Positions 4,987 to 10,895 are shown, counted from the stretch's first letter. The stretch: 64,000 bases of DNA from the human T2T-CHM13v2.0 reference genome, Homo sapiens (GCA_009914755.4 CP068257.2:15264001-15328000); one strand, 5' to 3'. The notes: generated by a model not told the origin, from the sequence alone. Made by a program: numbers and translations.

Positions 4987-4991
4987 TTGAG
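4987..4991. repeat. Target-site duplication of HERV-H, 5' copy (TTGAG)
   Basis: 'ttgag' immediately precedes the 5' LTR start 'tgtcaggcc'. The identical pentamer follows the 3' LTR end at 10765-10769. Confidence 0.7.
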
Positions 4992-5257
4992 TGTCAGGCC
5001 TCTGAGCCCAAGCTAAGCCATCATATCCCCTGTGACCTGCACGTACACATCCAGATGGCTGGTTCCTGCCTTAACTGATGACATTCCACCACCAAAGAAA
5101 TGAAAATGGCCTGTTCCTGCCTTAACTGATGGCATTATCTTGTGAAATTCCTTCTCCTGGCTCATCCTGGCTCAAAATCTCCCCTACTGAGCACCTTGTG
5201 ACCCCCACTCCAGCCTGCCAGAGAACAATCCCCCTTTTTCCTTTACCTACCCAAATC

Positions 5258-5265
5258 CTATAAAA
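5258..5265 (+). promoter_or_regulatory. LTR7 TATA box (TATAAAAG) in the 5' LTR
   Basis: 'cctataaaagggccccacc' sits about 70 nt upstream of the AATAAA/R region. This is the canonical LTR7 promoter architecture. Confidence 0.6.
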
Positions 5266-5329
5266 GGGCCCCACCCCATCTCCCTTCCTTGACTCTCTTT
5301 TCGGACTCAGCCCATCTGCACCCAGGTGA

Positions 5330-5335
5330 AATAAA
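5330..5335 (+). terminator. LTR poly(A) signal AATAAA (R region)
   Basis: 'ggtgaaataaacagctttattgctcac'. The same motif recurs at 10700-10705 in the 3' LTR. Confidence 0.6.
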
Positions 5336-5396
5336 CAGCTTTATTGCTCACACAAAGCCTGCTTGGAGGTCTCTTCACACGGACGCGCATGAAATT

Positions 5397-5414
5397 TGGT
5401 GCCGTGACTCGGAT
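5397..5414 (+). promoter_or_regulatory. Retroviral primer-binding site, complementary to the tRNA-His 3' end
   Basis: 'tggtgccgtgactcggat' is the reverse complement of the tRNA-His 3' terminus '...atccgagtcacggcacca'. It lies 2 nt after the LTR end, which is diagnostic of HERV-H. Confidence 0.85.
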
Positions 5415-6099: not shown

Positions 6100-7335
6100 A
6101 TGGGCAAGCTTCCACCTTCCATTCCTCCTTCTTCTCCCTTAGCCTGTGTTTTTAAGAACTTAAAACCTCTTCAAATCTCACCTGACCTAAAATCTAAGCA
6201 TCTTATTTTCTTCTGCAATGCCACTTGATCCCAATACAAACTCGACAGTAGTTCCAAATATCTGGAAAATGGCATTTTCAATTTTTCCATCCTACAAGAT
6301 CTAAATAATTCTTGAATAGGCAAAGGCTCTGAGATGCCTGATGTCCAGGCATTCTTTTACACATCAGTCCCTCCCTAGTCTCTGTTCCCAATGCAACTCA
6401 TCCCAAATCTTCCTTCTTTCCCTCCCACCTGTCCCCTCAGTCCCAACCCCAAGTTTCGCTGAGTCTTTCTAATCATCCTTTTCTACAGACCCATCTGACC
6501 TCTCCCCTCCTCACCAGGCTGAGCTAGGTCCCAATTCTTCCTCAGCCTCTGCTCCTCCACCCTATAATCCTTTTATCACCTCCCCTCCTCACACCCTTGT
6601 CTGGCTTACAGTTTTGTTCAGTGACTAGCCCTTTCCCACCTGCCCAGCAATTTACTCTTAAAAAGGTGGCTGGAGCTAAAGGCATAGTCAAGGTTAATGC
6701 TCCTTTTTTTTTATCCCAAATCAGATAGCGTTTAGTCTCTTTTTCATCAAATATAAAAATCCAGCCCAGTTCATGGCTCATTTGGCAGCAACCCTGAGAT
6801 GCTTTACAGCCCTAGACTCTAAAAGGTCAAGAGGCCGTCTTATTCTCAATACACATTTTATTAACCAATCTGCTACTGACATTAAATAAAACTCCAAAAA
6901 TTGAATTCCAGACCTCAAACCCCACAAGAGGACTTAACTAACCCCACCTTCAAGGTGTACAATAATAGAGTAGAGGCAACCAAGTAGCAACATATTTCTG
7001 AGTTGCAATTCCTTGCCTCCACTGTGAGACAAACCCCAGCCACATCTCCAGCACACAAGAACTTCCAAACGCCTAAACCGCAGTGGCCAGGCATTGCTCC
7101 AGAACCTCCTCCCCCAGGAGCTTGCTACAAGTGCCAGAAATCTGGCCACCAGGCCAAGGAATGCCCGCAGCCTGGGATTCCTCCTAAGCCATGTCCCATC
7201 TGTGCGGGACCCCACTGGAAATTGGACTGTTCAACTCACCTGGTAGCCACTCCCAGGGCCCCTGGAACTCTGGCCCAAGGCTCTCTGACTGACTCCTTCC
7301 CAGATCTTCTCAGCTTAGCGGCTGAAGACTGACAC
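6100..7335 (+). pseudogene. HERV-H gag remnant (nucleocapsid with two CCHC zinc knuckles at 7123-7164 and 7192-7230)
   Basis: ORF 7003-7332 encodes 'CYKCQKSGHQAKEC' (C-X2-C-X4-H-X4-C) and 'CPICAGPHWKLDC'. The upstream frame is broken. Confidence 0.7.
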
Positions 7336-7389
7336 TGCCCGATCGCCTCAGAAGCCCTGTAGACCATCACGGACGCCGAGCTTTAGGTA

Positions 7390-9600
7390 ACTCTCACAGT
7401 GGAGGGTAAGTCCGTCCCTTCTTAATCAATACGGAGGCTACCCACTCCACATTACCTTCTTTTCTAGGGCCTGTTTCCCTTGCCTCCATAACTGTTGTGG
7501 GTATTGACAGCCAGGTTTCTCAACCTCTTAAAACTCCCCAACTCTGGTGCCAACTTAGACAATACTCTTTTAAGCACTCCTTTTAATTATCCCCACCTGC
7601 CCAGTTCCTTTATTAGGCCGAGACACTTCAACTAAATTATCTGCTTCCCTGACTATTTCTGGACTACAGCTACTTCTCATTGCTGCCCTTCTTCCCAATC
7701 CAAAGCCTCCTTTTCGTCCTCCTCTTGTATCCCCCGACCTTAACCCACAAGTAAAAGATATCTCTACTCCCTCCTGGGCAACCGATCATGTACACCTCAC
7801 CGTCTCATTAAAACCTTATCACCCTTACCCTGCTCAATGCCAATATCCCATCCCACACCATGCTTTGAAAGGATTAAAGCCTGTTATCACTCGCCTGCTA
7901 CAGCATGGCCTTTTAAAGCCTATAAACTCTCCTTACAATTCCCACATTTTACCTGTCCTAAAACCAGACAAGCCTTACAAGTTAGTTCAGGATCTATGCC
8001 TTATCAACCCAATTGTTTTGCCTATCCACCCCATGGTGCCAAACCCATATACTCTCCTATCCTCAATACCTCCCTCCACAATCCATTATTCTGTTCTGGA
8101 TCTCAAACATGCTTTCTTTACTATTCCTTTGCACCCTTCATCCCAGCCTCTCTTTGCTTTCACCTGGACTGACCCTGACATTCATCAAGCTCAGCAAATT
8201 ACCTAGGCTGTACTGCAGCAAAGCTTCACAGACAGCCCCCATTACTTCAGTCAAGCCCAAATTTCTTCCTCATATATTACCTATCTCAGCATAATTCTCA
8301 TGAAAACACATGTGCTCTCTCTCCTGATCGTGTCTGGCTAATCTCCCAAACCCCAATCCCTTGTACAAAACAACAACTCCTTTCCTTCCTAGGCATGGTT
8401 GGATACTTTTGCCTTTGGATACCTGGTTTTGCCATCCTAACAAAACCATTATATAAACTCACAAAAGGAAACCTAGCTGACCCCACAGTTCCTAAATCCT
8501 TTCCCCACTCCTCTTTCCATTCCTTGAAGACAGCTTTAGAGACTGCCCCCACCCTAGCTCTCCCTGACTCATCCCAACCCTTTTCATTACACACAGCCGA
8601 AGTGCAGGGCTGTGTAGTCAGAATTCTTACACAAGGACCGGGATCGCATCCTGTAGTCTTTTTGTCCAAACAACTTGACCTTACTGTTTTAGGCTGGCCA
8701 TCATGTCTCCGTGCGGCGGCTGCTGCCACCCCAATGCTTTTAGAGGCTCTTAAAATCACAAACTATGCTCAACTCTCTACAGCTCTCATAATTTCCAAAA
8801 TCCATTTTCTTCCAAACACCTGACACATATACTTTCTGCTCCCCGGCTCCTTCAGCTGTACTCACTCTTTGTTGAGTCTCCCACAATTACCATTGTTCCT
8901 GGTGCGGACTTCAATCTGGCCTCCTACATTATTCCTGATACCACACCTGACCCTCATGACTGCATCTCTCTGATCCACCTGACATTCACCCCATTTCCCC
9001 ACATTTCCTTCTTCCCTGTTTCTCACCCTGATCACACTTGGTTTATTGATGGCAGTTCCACCAGGCCTAATCACCACACACCAGCAAAGGCAGGCTATGC
9101 TATAGTAGAAGCCACTAGCCTGCTTCTTATAACCTCTCATTTCCTTTCCATCATGGAACTCTATCCTCAAGGAAATAACTTCTCAGTGTTCCATCTGCTA
9201 TTCTACTACTCCTCAGGGATTATTCAGGCCCCCTCCCTTCCCTACACATCAAGCTCAGGGATTTGCCCCCACCCAGGACTGGCAAATTAGCTTTACTCAA
9301 CATGCCCCGAGTCAGGAAACTAAAATACCTCTTGGTCTAGGTAGACACTTTCACTGGACGGCTAGAGGCCTTTCCCACAGGGTCTGAGAAGGGCACCACA
9401 GTCATTTCTTCCCTTCTGTCACACACAATTACTCAGTTTGGCCTTCCCACCTCTATACAATCCGATAGCACACCGGCCTTTATTAGTCAAACCAGCCAAG
9501 CAGTTTTTCAGGCTCTTGGTATACAGTGAAACCTTTATATCCCTTACAGTCCTCAGTCTTCAGGAAAGGTAGAACGGACTAATGGTCTTTTAAAAACACA
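7390..9600 (+). pseudogene. HERV-H pol remnant (protease-like, reverse transcriptase, RNase H, integrase), multiple frameshifts and stops
   Basis: Protease-like 'LINTEATHS' (degenerate DTG). RT motifs in ORFs 7865-8206 ('YSVLDLKHAFFTIPL', 'LFAFTW') and 8395-8823 ('GYFCLWIPGFAILTKPLYKLTK'). RNase H 'WFIDGSS' at about 9038-9058. Integrase-like 'DWQISFTQ...SDSTPAFISQ' at about 9270-9500. Confidence 0.7.
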
Positions 9601-10359
9601 CCTCACCAAGCTCAGCCACCAACTTAAAAAGGACTGGACAATATTTTTACCTCTTTCTTTTCTCAGAATTTAGGCCTGTCCTCAGAATGCTACAGGGTAC
9701 AGCCTATTTGAGCTCCTGTATGGACGCTTCCTTTTTATTAAGACCCAGTCTCATTCCAGACACCAGACCAACTTGGACTCTGCCCCAAAAAACTTGTCAT
9801 CCCTACTATCTTCTGTCTAGTCATGCTCCTATTCACAGTTCTCAACTACTCATACATGCCCTGCTCTTGTTTACACTGCCAGTTTACACTGTTTCTCCAA
9901 GCCATCACAGCTGATATTGGTGCTATCGCCAAACTGCCACTTTTAACTCTTGAAGTCAATAAATAATCTTTGCTGGCAGGACTATGCTGAATCCCCTTAG
10001 GCACTCTCTAATTAGATGTCCTGGGTCTTCCCAATTCTTAGGCCTTTAATACCTGTTTTTCTCCTTCTCTTATTCCGTTTAGTTTTTCAATTCATACAAA
10101 ACCGTATCCAGACCATCACCAATAATTCTACATGACAAATGTTTCTTCTAACAACCCCACAATATCACCCCTTACCACAAAATCTTCCTTCAGCTTCATC
10201 TCTCCCACTCTAGGTTCCCACGCCTCCCCTAATCCCGCTCGAAGCAACCCTGAGAAACATCGCCCATTCTCTCTCCATACCATCACCCAAAATTTTCACC
10301 ATCCCAACACTTTACCATTATTTTGTTTTATTTTTCTTATTAACATAAGAAGACAGGAA

Positions 10360-10764
10360 TGTTAGGCCTCTGAGCCCAAGCTAAGCCGTCATATCCCCTG
10401 TGACCTGCACGTACACATCCAGATGGCCGGTTCCTGCCTTCACTGATGACATTCCACCACAAAAGAAGTGAAAATGGCCTGTTCCTGCCTTAACTGATGG
10501 CATTATCTTGTGAAATTCCTTTTCCTCGCTCATCCTGGCTCAAAAGCTCCTCTACTGAGCACCTTGTGACCCCCCACTCCTGCCTGCCAGAGAACAACCT
10601 CCCTTTTTCCTTTACCTAACCAAATCCTATAAAAGGGCCCCACCCCTATCTCCCTTCGCTGACTCTCTTTTTGGACTCAGCCCACCTGCACCCAGGTGAA
10701 ATAAACAGCTTTATTGCTCACACAAAGCCTGTTTGATGGTCTCTTCATACAGACGCGAGTGAAA
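10360..10764 (+). mobile_element. HERV-H 3' LTR (LTR7 family); TATA at 10628-10635, AATAAA at 10700-10705
   Basis: Collinear with the 5' LTR. By eye I count about 30 substitutions or indels over about 404 bp, roughly 7%. Several are CpG to TpG changes. It is preceded by a purine-rich tract 'aagaagacaggaa'. Confidence 0.85.
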
Positions 10765-10895
10765 TTGAGGTCGAAAGAATTTAGGGTTATTCTATTATGT
10801 GTAAGTATGACTGTTGAGGCTGTTTTCTCATTTGTATGGCGTTTGGCAAGGTTTGATATTAGGTTTAATGCTAGTTTTGGAAAAGCAATTTGGAA

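What the first reader, a model, noticed from the sequence alone, without database searches (positions are those of the whole stretch)
4987..10769. Structurally complete HERV-H provirus with both LTR7s, tRNA-His primer-binding site and intact TTGAG target-site duplication
Both LTRs are present, the 18-nt primer-binding site is a perfect complement of the tRNA-His 3' end, and the same pentamer TTGAG flanks the element at 4987-4991 and 10765-10769. The locus has therefore not undergone LTR-LTR recombination or flank rearrangement since integration. Internal organisation is typical of the common env-deleted RTVL-H form of about 5.8 kb. It has a leader with a 41-bp tandem repeat, a gag nucleocapsid with two intact CCHC knuckles, and a frameshifted pol. 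By eye I count about 30 differences over about 404 bp between the 5' and 3' LTRs (about 7%), many of them CpG to TpG. That implies tens of millions of years since integration. The 5' LTR retains TATAAAAG and AATAAA, and a GTAAGC donor follows the primer-binding site. This is the architecture used by LTR7/HERV-H-driven spliced lncRNAs in pluripotent cells, so this provirus could be a promoter or first exon of such a transcript.
Basis: partly seen in the sequence, partly recalled or inferred. Interest (0 to 1): 0.55.

Follow-up and report, generated by a model that had tools for sequence, protein, structure and literature searches.

The report
Ordinary silent HERV-H (LTR7d2) provirus
This is a real but ordinary, already catalogued fossil retrovirus (HERV-H, LTR7d2 subfamily) on human chromosome 21, and published stem-cell data score it as silent rather than as a lncRNA promoter.

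Summary
Window 4992-10764 is a 5,773-bp two-LTR HERV-H provirus flanked by an exact 5-bp TTGAG duplication. It has the published 18-nt tRNA-His primer-binding site, a polypurine tract, degraded gag-pro-pol, almost no env, and the family's conserved GTAAGC splice donor.

Small corrections:
- The LTRs differ by 25 substitutions plus 2 one-base indels (6.2%, K2P 6.5%), not about 30.
- Only 4 of these are CpG-decay transitions.
- The leader repeat has a 42-bp period (21-bp half-units), not 41.
- The second gag knuckle is CX2CX3HX4C.

Against the 11 published LTR7 subfamily consensuses, both LTRs are LTR7d (d2/d1), not LTR7up.

The 5' LTR matches 399 of 400 nt of hg38 chr21:16,914,128-16,919,898, which Carter et al. 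2022 list as a full-length 7d2 element. Their H1 ESC table scores this locus negative for RNA, GRO-seq and chimeric transcripts. It is also negative for NANOG, KLF4, OCT4, SOX2, H3K4me3 and H3K27ac. It is positive only for KAP1 and for ZNF534, the latter from HEK293 data.

So the structural reading is right, and the pluripotent-lncRNA speculation is contradicted for this locus. It is already known and of low interest.

The parts
4987..4991 (+). Left copy of the 5-bp target-site duplication, TTGAG
   Evidence: Directly abuts the TGTCAGG start of the 5' LTR and is identical to 10765-10769. Neighbouring bases differ, so the match is exactly 5 bp.
4992..5394 (+). 5' LTR (LTR7d2), 403 bp. TATAAAAG is at 5259-5266, the R-region primer site at 5291-5311, and AATAAA at 5330-5335. 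The LTR ends in ...GCATGAAA.
   Evidence: It is 95.5% identical to the LTR7d2 consensus and 95.9% to LTR7d1, with 2-3 gaps. Against 7up it is about 90% identical with 50 gapped bp. Positions 4993-5392 match 399/400 nt of the hg38 chr21:16914128-16914528 entry in Carter et al.. The R-region primer site was located.
5397..5414 (+). Primer-binding site TGGTGCCGTGACTCGGAT (tRNA-His), preceded by the TT spacer at 5395-5396
   Evidence: Identical to the published PBS-tRNAHis primer. Its reverse complement is ATCCGAGTCACGGCACCA.
5538..5546 (+). Major 5' splice donor CTG|GTAAGC, with GT at 5541-5542, 144 nt after the PBS start
   Evidence: All 42 other LTR7-linked HERV-H copies with enough downstream sequence carry GTAAG 141-152 nt after the PBS start, 39 of them at exactly 144. 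These copies came from metagenome contigs.
5880..6022 (+). Pre-gag leader tandem repeat, 42-bp period x3.0 (21-bp half-units x6.8)
   Evidence: TRF score 178 with 86% matches; also found as family D1 by the repeat finder.
6100..7332 (+). Degraded gag. The ATG is at 6100 (MGKLPPSIPP...), followed by multiple stops and frameshifts. The nucleocapsid piece is 7003-7332, with knuckles at 7123-7164 (CX2CX4HX4C) and 7192-7230 (CX2CX3HX4C).
   Evidence: Stop-to-stop translations, Pfam zf-CCHC E=8.9e-7, and motif coordinates.
7410..9817 (+). Degraded pro-pol, spread over all three frames. It comprises protease (about 7419-7651), an RT fragment (about 8072-8173, with the RT motif B remnant at 8207-8338) and the RT connection domain (8509-8727). 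These are followed by the RNase H start (TWFIDGSS, within 8754-9106) and integrase (CX2C at about 9190, core 9341-9817). No YXDD motif is present in any frame.
   Evidence: Pfam hits: RVP E=5.9e-4, RVT_1 E=1.1e-3 (profile positions 65-98 only), RT_RNaseH_2 E=7e-9, rve E=5e-6. Frame map. The YXDD search was negative.
9818..10346 (+). Env remnant of about 0.5 kb. It holds only leader-like and transmembrane-anchor-like hydrophobic pieces (for example 10016-10132, MSWVFPILRPLIPVFLLLLF...).
   Evidence: There is no Pfam envelope hit. Only about 530 bp lie between the integrase end and the PPT. The region is colinear at 90.6% with another env-deleted copy, L021, over 6548-10766.
10347..10359 (+). 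Polypurine tract AAGAAGACAGGAA, abutting the 3' LTR
   Evidence: Read directly from the sequence.
10360..10764 (+). 3' LTR (LTR7d2), 405 bp. It starts TGTTAGG (C>T) and ends ...GCGAGTGAAA.
   Evidence: Aligned to the 5' LTR with 25 substitutions and 2 indels. It is 94.8% identical to the LTR7d2 consensus and 95.7% to LTR7d1.
10765..10769 (+). Right copy of the 5-bp target-site duplication, TTGAG

Best explanation
This is a fixed, dead HERV-H (RTVL-H) provirus of the LTR7d2 subfamily at human 21q21.1, hg38 chr21:16,914,128-16,919,898, on the + strand.

Origin (inferred): a tRNA-His-primed, gammaretrovirus-like genome was reverse-transcribed and integrated in a hominoid ancestor roughly 15-30 million years ago. 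It was already the common non-autonomous deleted form, lacking nearly all env and parts of pol including the RT active site. Integration produced the 5-bp TTGAG duplication.

History since then: the locus has had no LTR-LTR recombination and no inter-element exchange, because the TSD is intact. It has no secondary insertions. The two LTRs have decayed about equally.

Signals and present state: the element still carries the family's generic signals, namely a TATA box, poly(A) signal, PBS, major splice donor and PPT. However, the LTR type lacks the SOX2/3-containing block that gives LTR7up its stem-cell promoter activity. In H1 ESCs the locus is scored as KAP1-bound with no RNA, nascent transcription, pluripotency-factor binding or active chromatin marks.

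Shown versus inferred: the anatomy, subfamily, locus identity and published silent state are shown. The integration mechanism and the date are inferred.
For: - Anatomy: LTRs, TSD, PBS and PPT; gag/pro/RT/RNase H/IN Pfam remnants in three frames; no YXDD motif and the two knuckles.
- Subfamily: the best match is to the LTR7d2/d1 consensuses from Carter et al. supplementary file 7.
- Locus identity: 399/400 nt identity to the named hg38 locus, with the same provirus length. The authors list it as '7d2' and 'full'.
- Silent state: the table row reads RNA 0, GRO 0, chimeric 0, KAP1 1, NANOG/OCT4/MED1/KLF4/FOXA1/FOXP1/SMAD1/SOX2/TCF4 0, ZNF534 1, ZNF90 0, and H3K4me1/H3K4me3/H3K9me3/H3K27ac 0 (with the header).
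- Subfamily behaviour: 7d1/2 are hominoid-specific and amplified about 14-20 Mya. Only 7up is robustly transcribed in ESC, and a 7d consensus drives 7.8-fold less reporter activity than 7up1.
- Neutral decay: 10 derived changes in the 5' LTR against 14 in the 3' LTR.
- Date: K2P 0.065 gives about 14 My at 2.3e-9 per site per year and 25-33 My at 1.0-1.3e-9.
- Family homology: the internal region is 89-93% identical and colinear with other LTR7-linked HERV-H copies. The splice donor is conserved in 42/42 copies.
- Typical form: 800-900 of about 1000 HERV-H elements lack nearly all env, and there are six commonly deleted fragments.
Against: - The expression evidence is second-hand binary calls from one study, mainly H1 ESC (ZNF534 from HEK293). 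It says nothing about naive cells, embryos, germ line or tumours.
- Multi-copy repeats are hard to map, so weak transcription could be missed.
- The window differs from hg38 by one base in the 400 nt that could be compared (5315 T versus C). Identity with the reference locus is therefore very likely but was checked only over the 5' LTR and the total length.
- The LTR-divergence date depends on the assumed rate and ignores possible LTR gene conversion.
- Presence or absence of the orthologue in other primates was not tested.
Confidence: 0.95

Rival explanations
1. One reading: the 5' LTR is an active promoter, and the LTR-to-5541 segment is the first exon of a spliced HERV-H lncRNA in pluripotent cells.
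For: The generic signals are intact: TATAAAAG, AATAAA, and the conserved donor at 5541. A minority of non-7up loci are expressed in ESC: 17 loci, about 2%.
Against: - The locus-specific published calls in H1 ESC are all 0 for RNA, GRO-seq, chimeric transcript, NANOG, KLF4, OCT4, SOX2, H3K4me3 and H3K27ac. KAP1 is 1.
- The LTR is 7d2 and lacks block 2b with its SOX2/3 motif.
- The 5' LTR has also lost its only AAAAGAAG copy.
- The sequence name in the authors' alignment carries the tag 'EncodeRepressed'.
Confidence: 0.03
2. The provirus is silent in ESC but acts as a promoter, enhancer or exon donor in some other context, such as the early embryo, germ line, placenta or tumours.
For: Env-deleted HERV-H loci of several kinds are transcribed and spliced in colon tumours and cell lines. 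ZNF534 and KAP1 binding suggest the locus is a target of active repression.
Against: No chr21 locus appears in the colon-cancer set (the terms 'chr21' and '21q21' were absent). Carter et al. report no stage-specific embryonic expression for 7d. There are no enhancer marks in H1.
Confidence: 0.07
3. The TTGAG match is a coincidence, and the element is a recombinant between two proviruses or has rearranged flanks.
For: A 5-mer match has a non-zero chance (about 1/1024). The TT of the right TSD also mimics the TT spacer that follows the 5' LTR.
Against: - The match sits exactly at both LTR termini.
- Both LTRs share a private substitution (TATAAAAC>G at 5266) not seen in sibling loci, plus a lineage-specific 10-bp deletion, as expected for LTRs copied from one template.
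- The length equals the hg38 annotation.
Confidence: 0.01

Closest known systems
LTR7d2-HERVH proviruses (Carter et al. 2022, eLife 11:e76257); this exact locus is listed there as chr21:16,914,128-16,919,898, 7d2, 'full'
   Same: It shares the LTR block structure: the duplicated GGTTCCTGCCTTAACTGATG module, absence of block 2b, and CTCATCCTGGCTCAAAAG. Identity to the consensus is 95-96%, length is 5.77 kb, and 399/400 nt match the listed 5' LTR.
   Different: Both LTRs carry a 10-bp deletion (GACTGTAATT) that is shared with a small sub-clade (chr4:52834802, chr4:166520700, chr2:179051593), and a private TATAAAAC>G change. The poly(A) region reads AAATAAACAGCTTTATTG, which mixes d2-like and d1-like states. 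There is one base difference from hg38, at window 5315.
RTVL-H2-type deleted HERV-H (the common form of about 5.8 kb; Mager & Freeman 1987, Wilkinson et al. 1993, as summarised in PMC3253121)
   Same: It has the tRNA-His PBS and nearly complete env loss. It has internal pol deletions, including the YXDD region and the RNase H/IN junction. It has a pre-gag leader repeat, and its total length is about 5.8 kb.
   Different: It keeps a 216-bp pol segment (8401-8616) that many other copies assembled from contaminating human reads lack. There was no direct alignment to RTVL-H2 or to the Jern 9.0-kb consensus, because neither sequence was available.
LTR7up-HERVH loci that drive stem-cell lncRNAs (ESRG, linc-ROR, LINC00458 type)
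   Same: It has the same proviral architecture, the same PBS, and the same major splice donor 144 nt after the PBS start.
   Different: It belongs to a different and older LTR subfamily, lacks the 2b block and its SOX2/3 motif, and shows no KLF4/NANOG/SOX2 binding, H3K4me3 or RNA in H1 ESC.

Membership tests
HERV-H (RTVL-H) provirus | LTR7-family LTRs at both ends (TGTCAGGCC... to ...GTGAAA) | tested here: met
   Both LTRs align to all 11 LTR7 consensuses at 82-96% identity, best to 7d2/d1. The start motif is found only at the two LTR starts.
HERV-H (RTVL-H) provirus | Primer-binding site complementary to the 3' end of tRNA-His | tested here: met
   Window 5397-5414 equals the published PBS-tRNAHis primer TGGTGCCGTGACTCGGAT. 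The match of its reverse complement to the tRNA-His 3' end plus CCA rests on my own knowledge; no tRNA-His sequence was available to align.
HERV-H (RTVL-H) provirus | Internal region homologous to HERVH-int (gammaretrovirus-like gag-pro-pol) | tested here: met
   Pfam zf-CCHC, RVP, RVT_1, RT_RNaseH_2 and rve hits appear in the right order. The region is 89-93% identical at the nucleotide level and colinear with other LTR7/PBS-His-linked copies. RepeatMasker-based annotation by Carter et al. lists the locus as '2ltr_int ... full'.
HERV-H (RTVL-H) provirus | Short target-site duplication flanking intact LTR ends, and a PPT before the 3' LTR | tested here: met
   TTGAG is present on both sides as an exact 5-bp match, and the PPT lies at 10347-10359. 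That 5 bp is the family's usual TSD size is from memory and was not tested.
LTR7d2 subfamily (Carter et al. 2022) | Highest similarity to the 7d consensus; block 2b absent; 5' duplication of the GGTTCCTGCCTTAACTGATGACATT module | tested here: met
   7d2 has the top alignment score for both LTRs (354 and 349) and 7d1 is a close second (343 and 342). The next best, 7up1, scores 291 and 287 with 50 gapped bp. The authors assign the locus to 7d2. The d1 versus d2 distinction is weak on sequence alone.
LTR7up / ESC-active HERVH promoter | Block 2b carrying the 8-bp AAAAGAAG SOX2/3 motif that is required for promoter activity in iPSC | tested here: not met
   Block 2b is absent. The 5' LTR has 0 copies of AAAAGAAG and the 3' LTR has 1, against 2 in the 7up1 consensus.
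LTR7up / ESC-active HERVH promoter | Transcription and active marks in hESC (RNA-seq >2 fpkm, GRO-seq, H3K4me3, KLF4/NANOG binding) | tested here: not met
   All of these are scored 0 for this locus in the published table. This is second-hand data, not re-analysed here.
Common env-deleted form of about 5.8 kb | Length of about 5.8 kb; nearly all env missing; internal pol deletions | tested here: met
   The provirus is 5,773 bp. About 530 bp lie between IN and the PPT, with no envelope Pfam hit. RVT_1 covers only profile positions 65-98 of 205 and there is no YXDD motif. No direct alignment to a full-length consensus was possible.
Coding-competent HERV-H (gag, pol or env ORF) | Long intact ORFs | tested here: not met
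   The longest sense ORF inside the coding part is 142 aa, and each frame has dozens of stops (57 in the first frame).

The most novel reading that the evidence does not exclude
The most novel reading not excluded is that this KAP1/ZNF534-targeted 7d2 provirus is de-repressed in a context not sampled by the H1 data. Candidates are naive pluripotency, germ cells and tumours. It would then use its intact TATA box and the conserved donor at 5541 to start a spliced non-coding or chimeric transcript in the 21q21.1 gene desert. Alternatively, the surviving 109-aa two-knuckle nucleocapsid ORF (7003-7332) could be expressed.
Probability: 0.06. Interest if true: 0.25.

Novelty: already known. Interest (0 to 1): 0.05.

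Why it matters
It matters little. This is one of roughly a thousand HERV-H proviruses. 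It is already in RepeatMasker-based catalogues and in a published per-locus regulatory table.

The useful outcomes are negative or clarifying:
- The element is correctly recognised.
- Its subfamily (7d2) predicts no pluripotent promoter activity, and the published data show none.
- Keeping both LTRs is normal for this family.
- The locus can serve as a clean example of a neutrally decaying HERV-H with an intact TSD, suitable for dating.

Tried and rejected
- An Rfam gathering-threshold scan of the whole window found 0 families, so there is no known structured RNA or lncRNA domain here.
- ARAGORN on the window found no tRNA genes. ARAGORN on the 8 PBS-matching metagenome contigs without LTR7 also found none, so I could not obtain a tRNA-His sequence to align against the PBS.
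- A viral-contig scan for the PBS string gave 0 hits.
I used stop-to-stop pieces instead.
- Jern et al. 2005 (PMC1091717), which holds the HERV-H 9.0-kb consensus, zinc-finger and splice-site descriptions, is not held. There is therefore no direct alignment to a full-length consensus.
- None of the 54 metagenome contigs is this locus; the best is about 93% identical. Several look like collapsed multi-copy assemblies, so I used them only for family-level conservation.
- I considered and rejected a non-HERV-H family, because of the LTR7 identity and His PBS. I rejected a chance TSD because of the exact termini and shared private LTR changes. I rejected membership of LTR7up or LTR7Y/B because of the scores.

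Full report
**1. What is in the sequence**

Reading window 4800-11000 and searching for repeats shows two direct copies of about 404 bp, 5,368-5,370 bp apart.

- LTR alignment: a MAFFT alignment of 4992-5394 against 10360-10764 has 405 columns. A column-by-column count gives 378 identities, 16 transitions, 9 transversions and two 1-bp indels. That is p = 6.2% and K2P = 6.5%.
- CpG context: six differences touch a CpG, and four of them are classical CpG>TpG/CpA transitions.
- LTR ends: the LTRs begin TGTCAGG (TGTTAGG in the 3' copy) and end GTGAAA. The LTR7y consensus, the only one in the published file written out to its last base, also ends TGAAA; the 7d consensuses are truncated before this point and 7b/7c end TGACA.
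- Target-site duplication: TTGAG sits immediately outside both termini, at 4987-4991 and 10765-10769. The adjacent bases differ on both sides, so the duplication is exactly 5 bp, with a chance of about 1/1024 at fixed positions.
- Uniqueness: the 22-nt LTR start motif occurs only at these two places in the 64 kb, against 0 expected.

**2. Retroviral landmarks**

- PBS: after the 5' LTR come TT and then TGGTGCCGTGACTCGGAT (5397-5414). This string is letter-for-letter the 'PBS-tRNAHis' forward primer published by Liang et al. 2012 (PMC3253121). Its reverse complement ATCCGAGTCACGGCACCA is the 3' end of human tRNA-His-GTG with CCA. That identity is my own knowledge, and no tRNA sequence was available to align.
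- R region: the same paper's R-region primer, reverse-complemented, matches 5291-5311 exactly. This places the R start about 25-30 nt after the TATAAAAG at 5259-5266. AATAAA is at 5330-5335.
- PPT: a polypurine tract AAGAAGACAGGAA (10347-10359) abuts the 3' LTR.
- Splice donor: CTG|GTAAGC has its GT at 5541, 144 nt after the PBS start.
- Is the donor a family feature? I fetched 54 metagenome contigs that carry the PBS string. Most are evidently HERV-H from contaminating human DNA, many of them from human skin metagenomes. All 42 LTR7-linked copies with enough downstream sequence have GTAAG 141-152 nt after the PBS start, 39 of them at exactly 144. These copies span the 7up, 7d, 7b, 7y, 7u2 and 7o LTR types. 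The donor is therefore the conserved major 5' splice site of the family, not a peculiarity of this locus.

**3. Interior**

- Leader repeat: TRF finds a 42-bp period x3.0 (21-bp half-units x6.8) at 5880-6022.
- Coding remnants: stop-to-stop translation and Pfam give, in order:
  - gag, with ATG at 6100 (MGKLPPSIPP...), broken by stops;
  - a nucleocapsid piece at 7003-7332 (zf-CCHC, E = 9e-7);
  - protease (RVP);
  - a short RT fragment (RVT_1, profile positions 65-98 only);
  - the RT connection domain (RT_RNaseH_2, E = 7e-9);
  - the start of RNase H (TWFIDGSS);
  - integrase (rve, E = 5e-6).
- Frames: these pieces lie in all three frames.
- Knuckles: the two knuckles are CYKCQKSGHQAKEC (7123-7164, canonical spacing) and CPICAGPHWKLDC (7192-7230, CX2CX3HX4C).
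- RT active site: no YXDD motif exists in any sense frame. The RT motif-B remnant (...FTDSPHYFSQA) runs almost directly into the post-YXDD YLS/G region, so the catalytic segment is deleted.
- Env: only about 530 bp separate the integrase end from the PPT, and nothing there hits an envelope family.
- ORFs: the longest sense ORF in the coding part is 142 aa.
- Family homology: by blastn the interior is 89-93% identical to the other HERV-H copies. It is colinear with L027 over 4989-8400 and with L021 over 6548-10766. There are thus no secondary insertions, and the deletion pattern is shared with other copies.
- Fit to the literature: about 1000 HERV-H elements exist, 800-900 lack nearly all env, and six fragments are commonly deleted (one in gag, four in pol, and env).

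**4. Subfamily**

Supplementary file 7 of Carter et al. 2022 (eLife 11:e76257, PMC8912925) gives consensus sequences for 11 LTR7 subfamilies.

- Global alignment puts both LTRs closest to LTR7d2 and LTR7d1: 95-96% identity with 2-3 gaps. 7up1, 7up2 and 7u1 give about 90% with about 50 gapped bases, and 7b, 7c and 7y score lower.
- The LTRs lack block 2b. According to the paper, that block is absent from 7d and carries the 8-bp SOX2/3 motif needed for 7up promoter activity in iPSC.
- The 5' LTR has no AAAAGAAG at all.
- Both LTRs share a 10-bp deletion (GACTGTAATT), which is also present in three sibling 7d loci in the authors' alignment. They also share a private TATAAAAC>G change. This is what is expected if both LTRs were copied from one template at integration.
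- Polarising the LTR-LTR differences with the consensuses and siblings gives 10 derived changes in the 5' LTR, 14 in the 3' LTR and 3 ambiguous. That is roughly symmetric, neutral-looking decay.

**5. Locus identity and published state**

- Finding the locus: searching the paper's supplementary alignments for a private 30-mer of the 5' LTR found one sequence, 'chr21_16914128_16919898_3219_ZNF534_KAP1_EncodeRepressed_7down_+'.
- Match: its 400 nt equal window 4993-5392 with a single mismatch (window 5315 T, hg38 C). The annotated provirus end maps to window 10762, so the length is the same.
- Placement: the window is therefore, with high probability, hg38 chr21:16,909,137-16,973,136 (+), or another human haplotype of it.
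- Table row (Supplementary file 1; row, header):
  - subfamily 7d2;
  - RNA 0, top-GRO 0, chimeric transcript 0;
  - KAP1 1;
  - NANOG, OCT4, MED1, KLF4, FOXA1, FOXP1, SMAD1, SOX2 and TCF4 all 0;
  - ZNF534 1, ZNF90 0, SOLO 0;
  - H3K4me1, H3K4me3, H3K9me3 and H3K27ac all 0.
- Supplementary file 2 lists the element as a 'full' two-LTR LTR7d2 element.
- Subfamily context from the paper: 33% of 7up loci are highly expressed in ESC, against 2% of all other loci. 7d1/2 are essentially hominoid-specific (5 of 550 shared with macaque, about 30% with gibbon, about 75% with orangutan) and amplified about 14-20 Mya. No embryonic stage-specific expression is reported for 7d.

**6. Age**

K2P 0.065 gives about 14 My at 2.3e-9 substitutions per site per year and 25-33 My at 1.0-1.3e-9. 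This brackets the subfamily's orthology-based window. 'Tens of millions of years' is fair. Orthologous presence or absence could not be tested here.

**7. Is a complete provirus remarkable?**

No. HERV-H is known for an unusually high provirus-to-solo ratio of about 1:1. The Carter data set has 781 5' LTRs of full-length elements against 1073 solo LTRs, and HERV-H has the slowest solo-LTR formation among the ERV groups examined.

**8. Verdict**

The structural interpretation is right. The functional suggestion, an LTR7-driven pluripotent lncRNA promoter or first exon, is contradicted in two ways. The LTR subfamily is wrong for it, and the published locus-specific H1 ESC calls are negative.

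The remaining open possibility is activity in unsampled contexts, which I put at about 5-10%. The feature is already known and annotated, and interest is low.

**9. Limits**

- The expression evidence is second-hand and binary.
- The comparison with hg38 covers 400 nt plus the total length.
- No full-length HERV-H consensus, primate orthologues or gene annotation were available.
- The tRNA-His complementarity and the family's usual 5-bp TSD size rest on established knowledge rather than on a tool result.

Noticed in passing
window 61704-63997 (runs to the window end): A large AT-rich minisatellite of more than 2.2 kb. TRF reports periods of 26, 33 and 78 bp, with 56-75 copies at the 26-bp period and 76-85% matches. 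The 33-bp unit TATAGTATATATAATATACTATATATAATATAC is partly palindromic.
   Followed up: no
window 15987-16129: A 51-bp tandem repeat with 2.8 copies and 89% matches.
   Followed up: no
window 4557-4883 and 10899-10931: The provirus is flanked by other repeats. Just 5' lies an antisense Alu, with its head GGCCGGGCG at about 4883 on the minus strand and a T-rich tail at about 4557-4601. Just 3' lies a perfect (TG)16 microsatellite.
   Followed up: partly
window 5315: This is the only difference from the hg38 5' LTR given in Carter et al.: window T, reference C. The 3' LTR and all related LTRs have C, so T is a derived variant. It is either a human polymorphism or evidence that the window comes from another assembly.
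   Followed up: partly
outside the window: hg38 chr21:16,892,211-16,898,239: Carter et al. list a second full-length LTR7d2 provirus in the same orientation, about 16 kb upstream of this one. It is not contained in the window.
   Followed up: no
window 8401-8616 and about 9106, compared with loci L006, L010, L018, L022, L035, L036, L041: Several assembled HERV-H copies lack the 216 bp at 8401-8616 that this provirus keeps. Others carry about 555 bp extra at window position about 9106, the RNase H/integrase junction. This points to several distinct pol-deletion variants within the family. The contigs may be collapsed multi-copy assemblies.
   Followed up: partly
loci L002, L007, L025, L026, L028, L033, L038, L050: Eight metagenome contigs contain the exact 20-nt TT+PBS string without a detectable donor at the usual offset. 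Four of them have no LTR7 upstream and the other four have too little upstream sequence to tell. ARAGORN finds no tRNA gene in any of them. Their nature is unknown; they could be other His-primed ERVs or chance matches.
   Followed up: partly
window 7003-7332: A 109-aa open frame survives across the gag nucleocapsid with both zinc knuckles intact, although the rest of gag is broken. A 2025 review notes that the HERVH gag zinc-finger domain is unusually preserved family-wide and suggests co-option. There is no evidence for expression at this locus.
   Followed up: no
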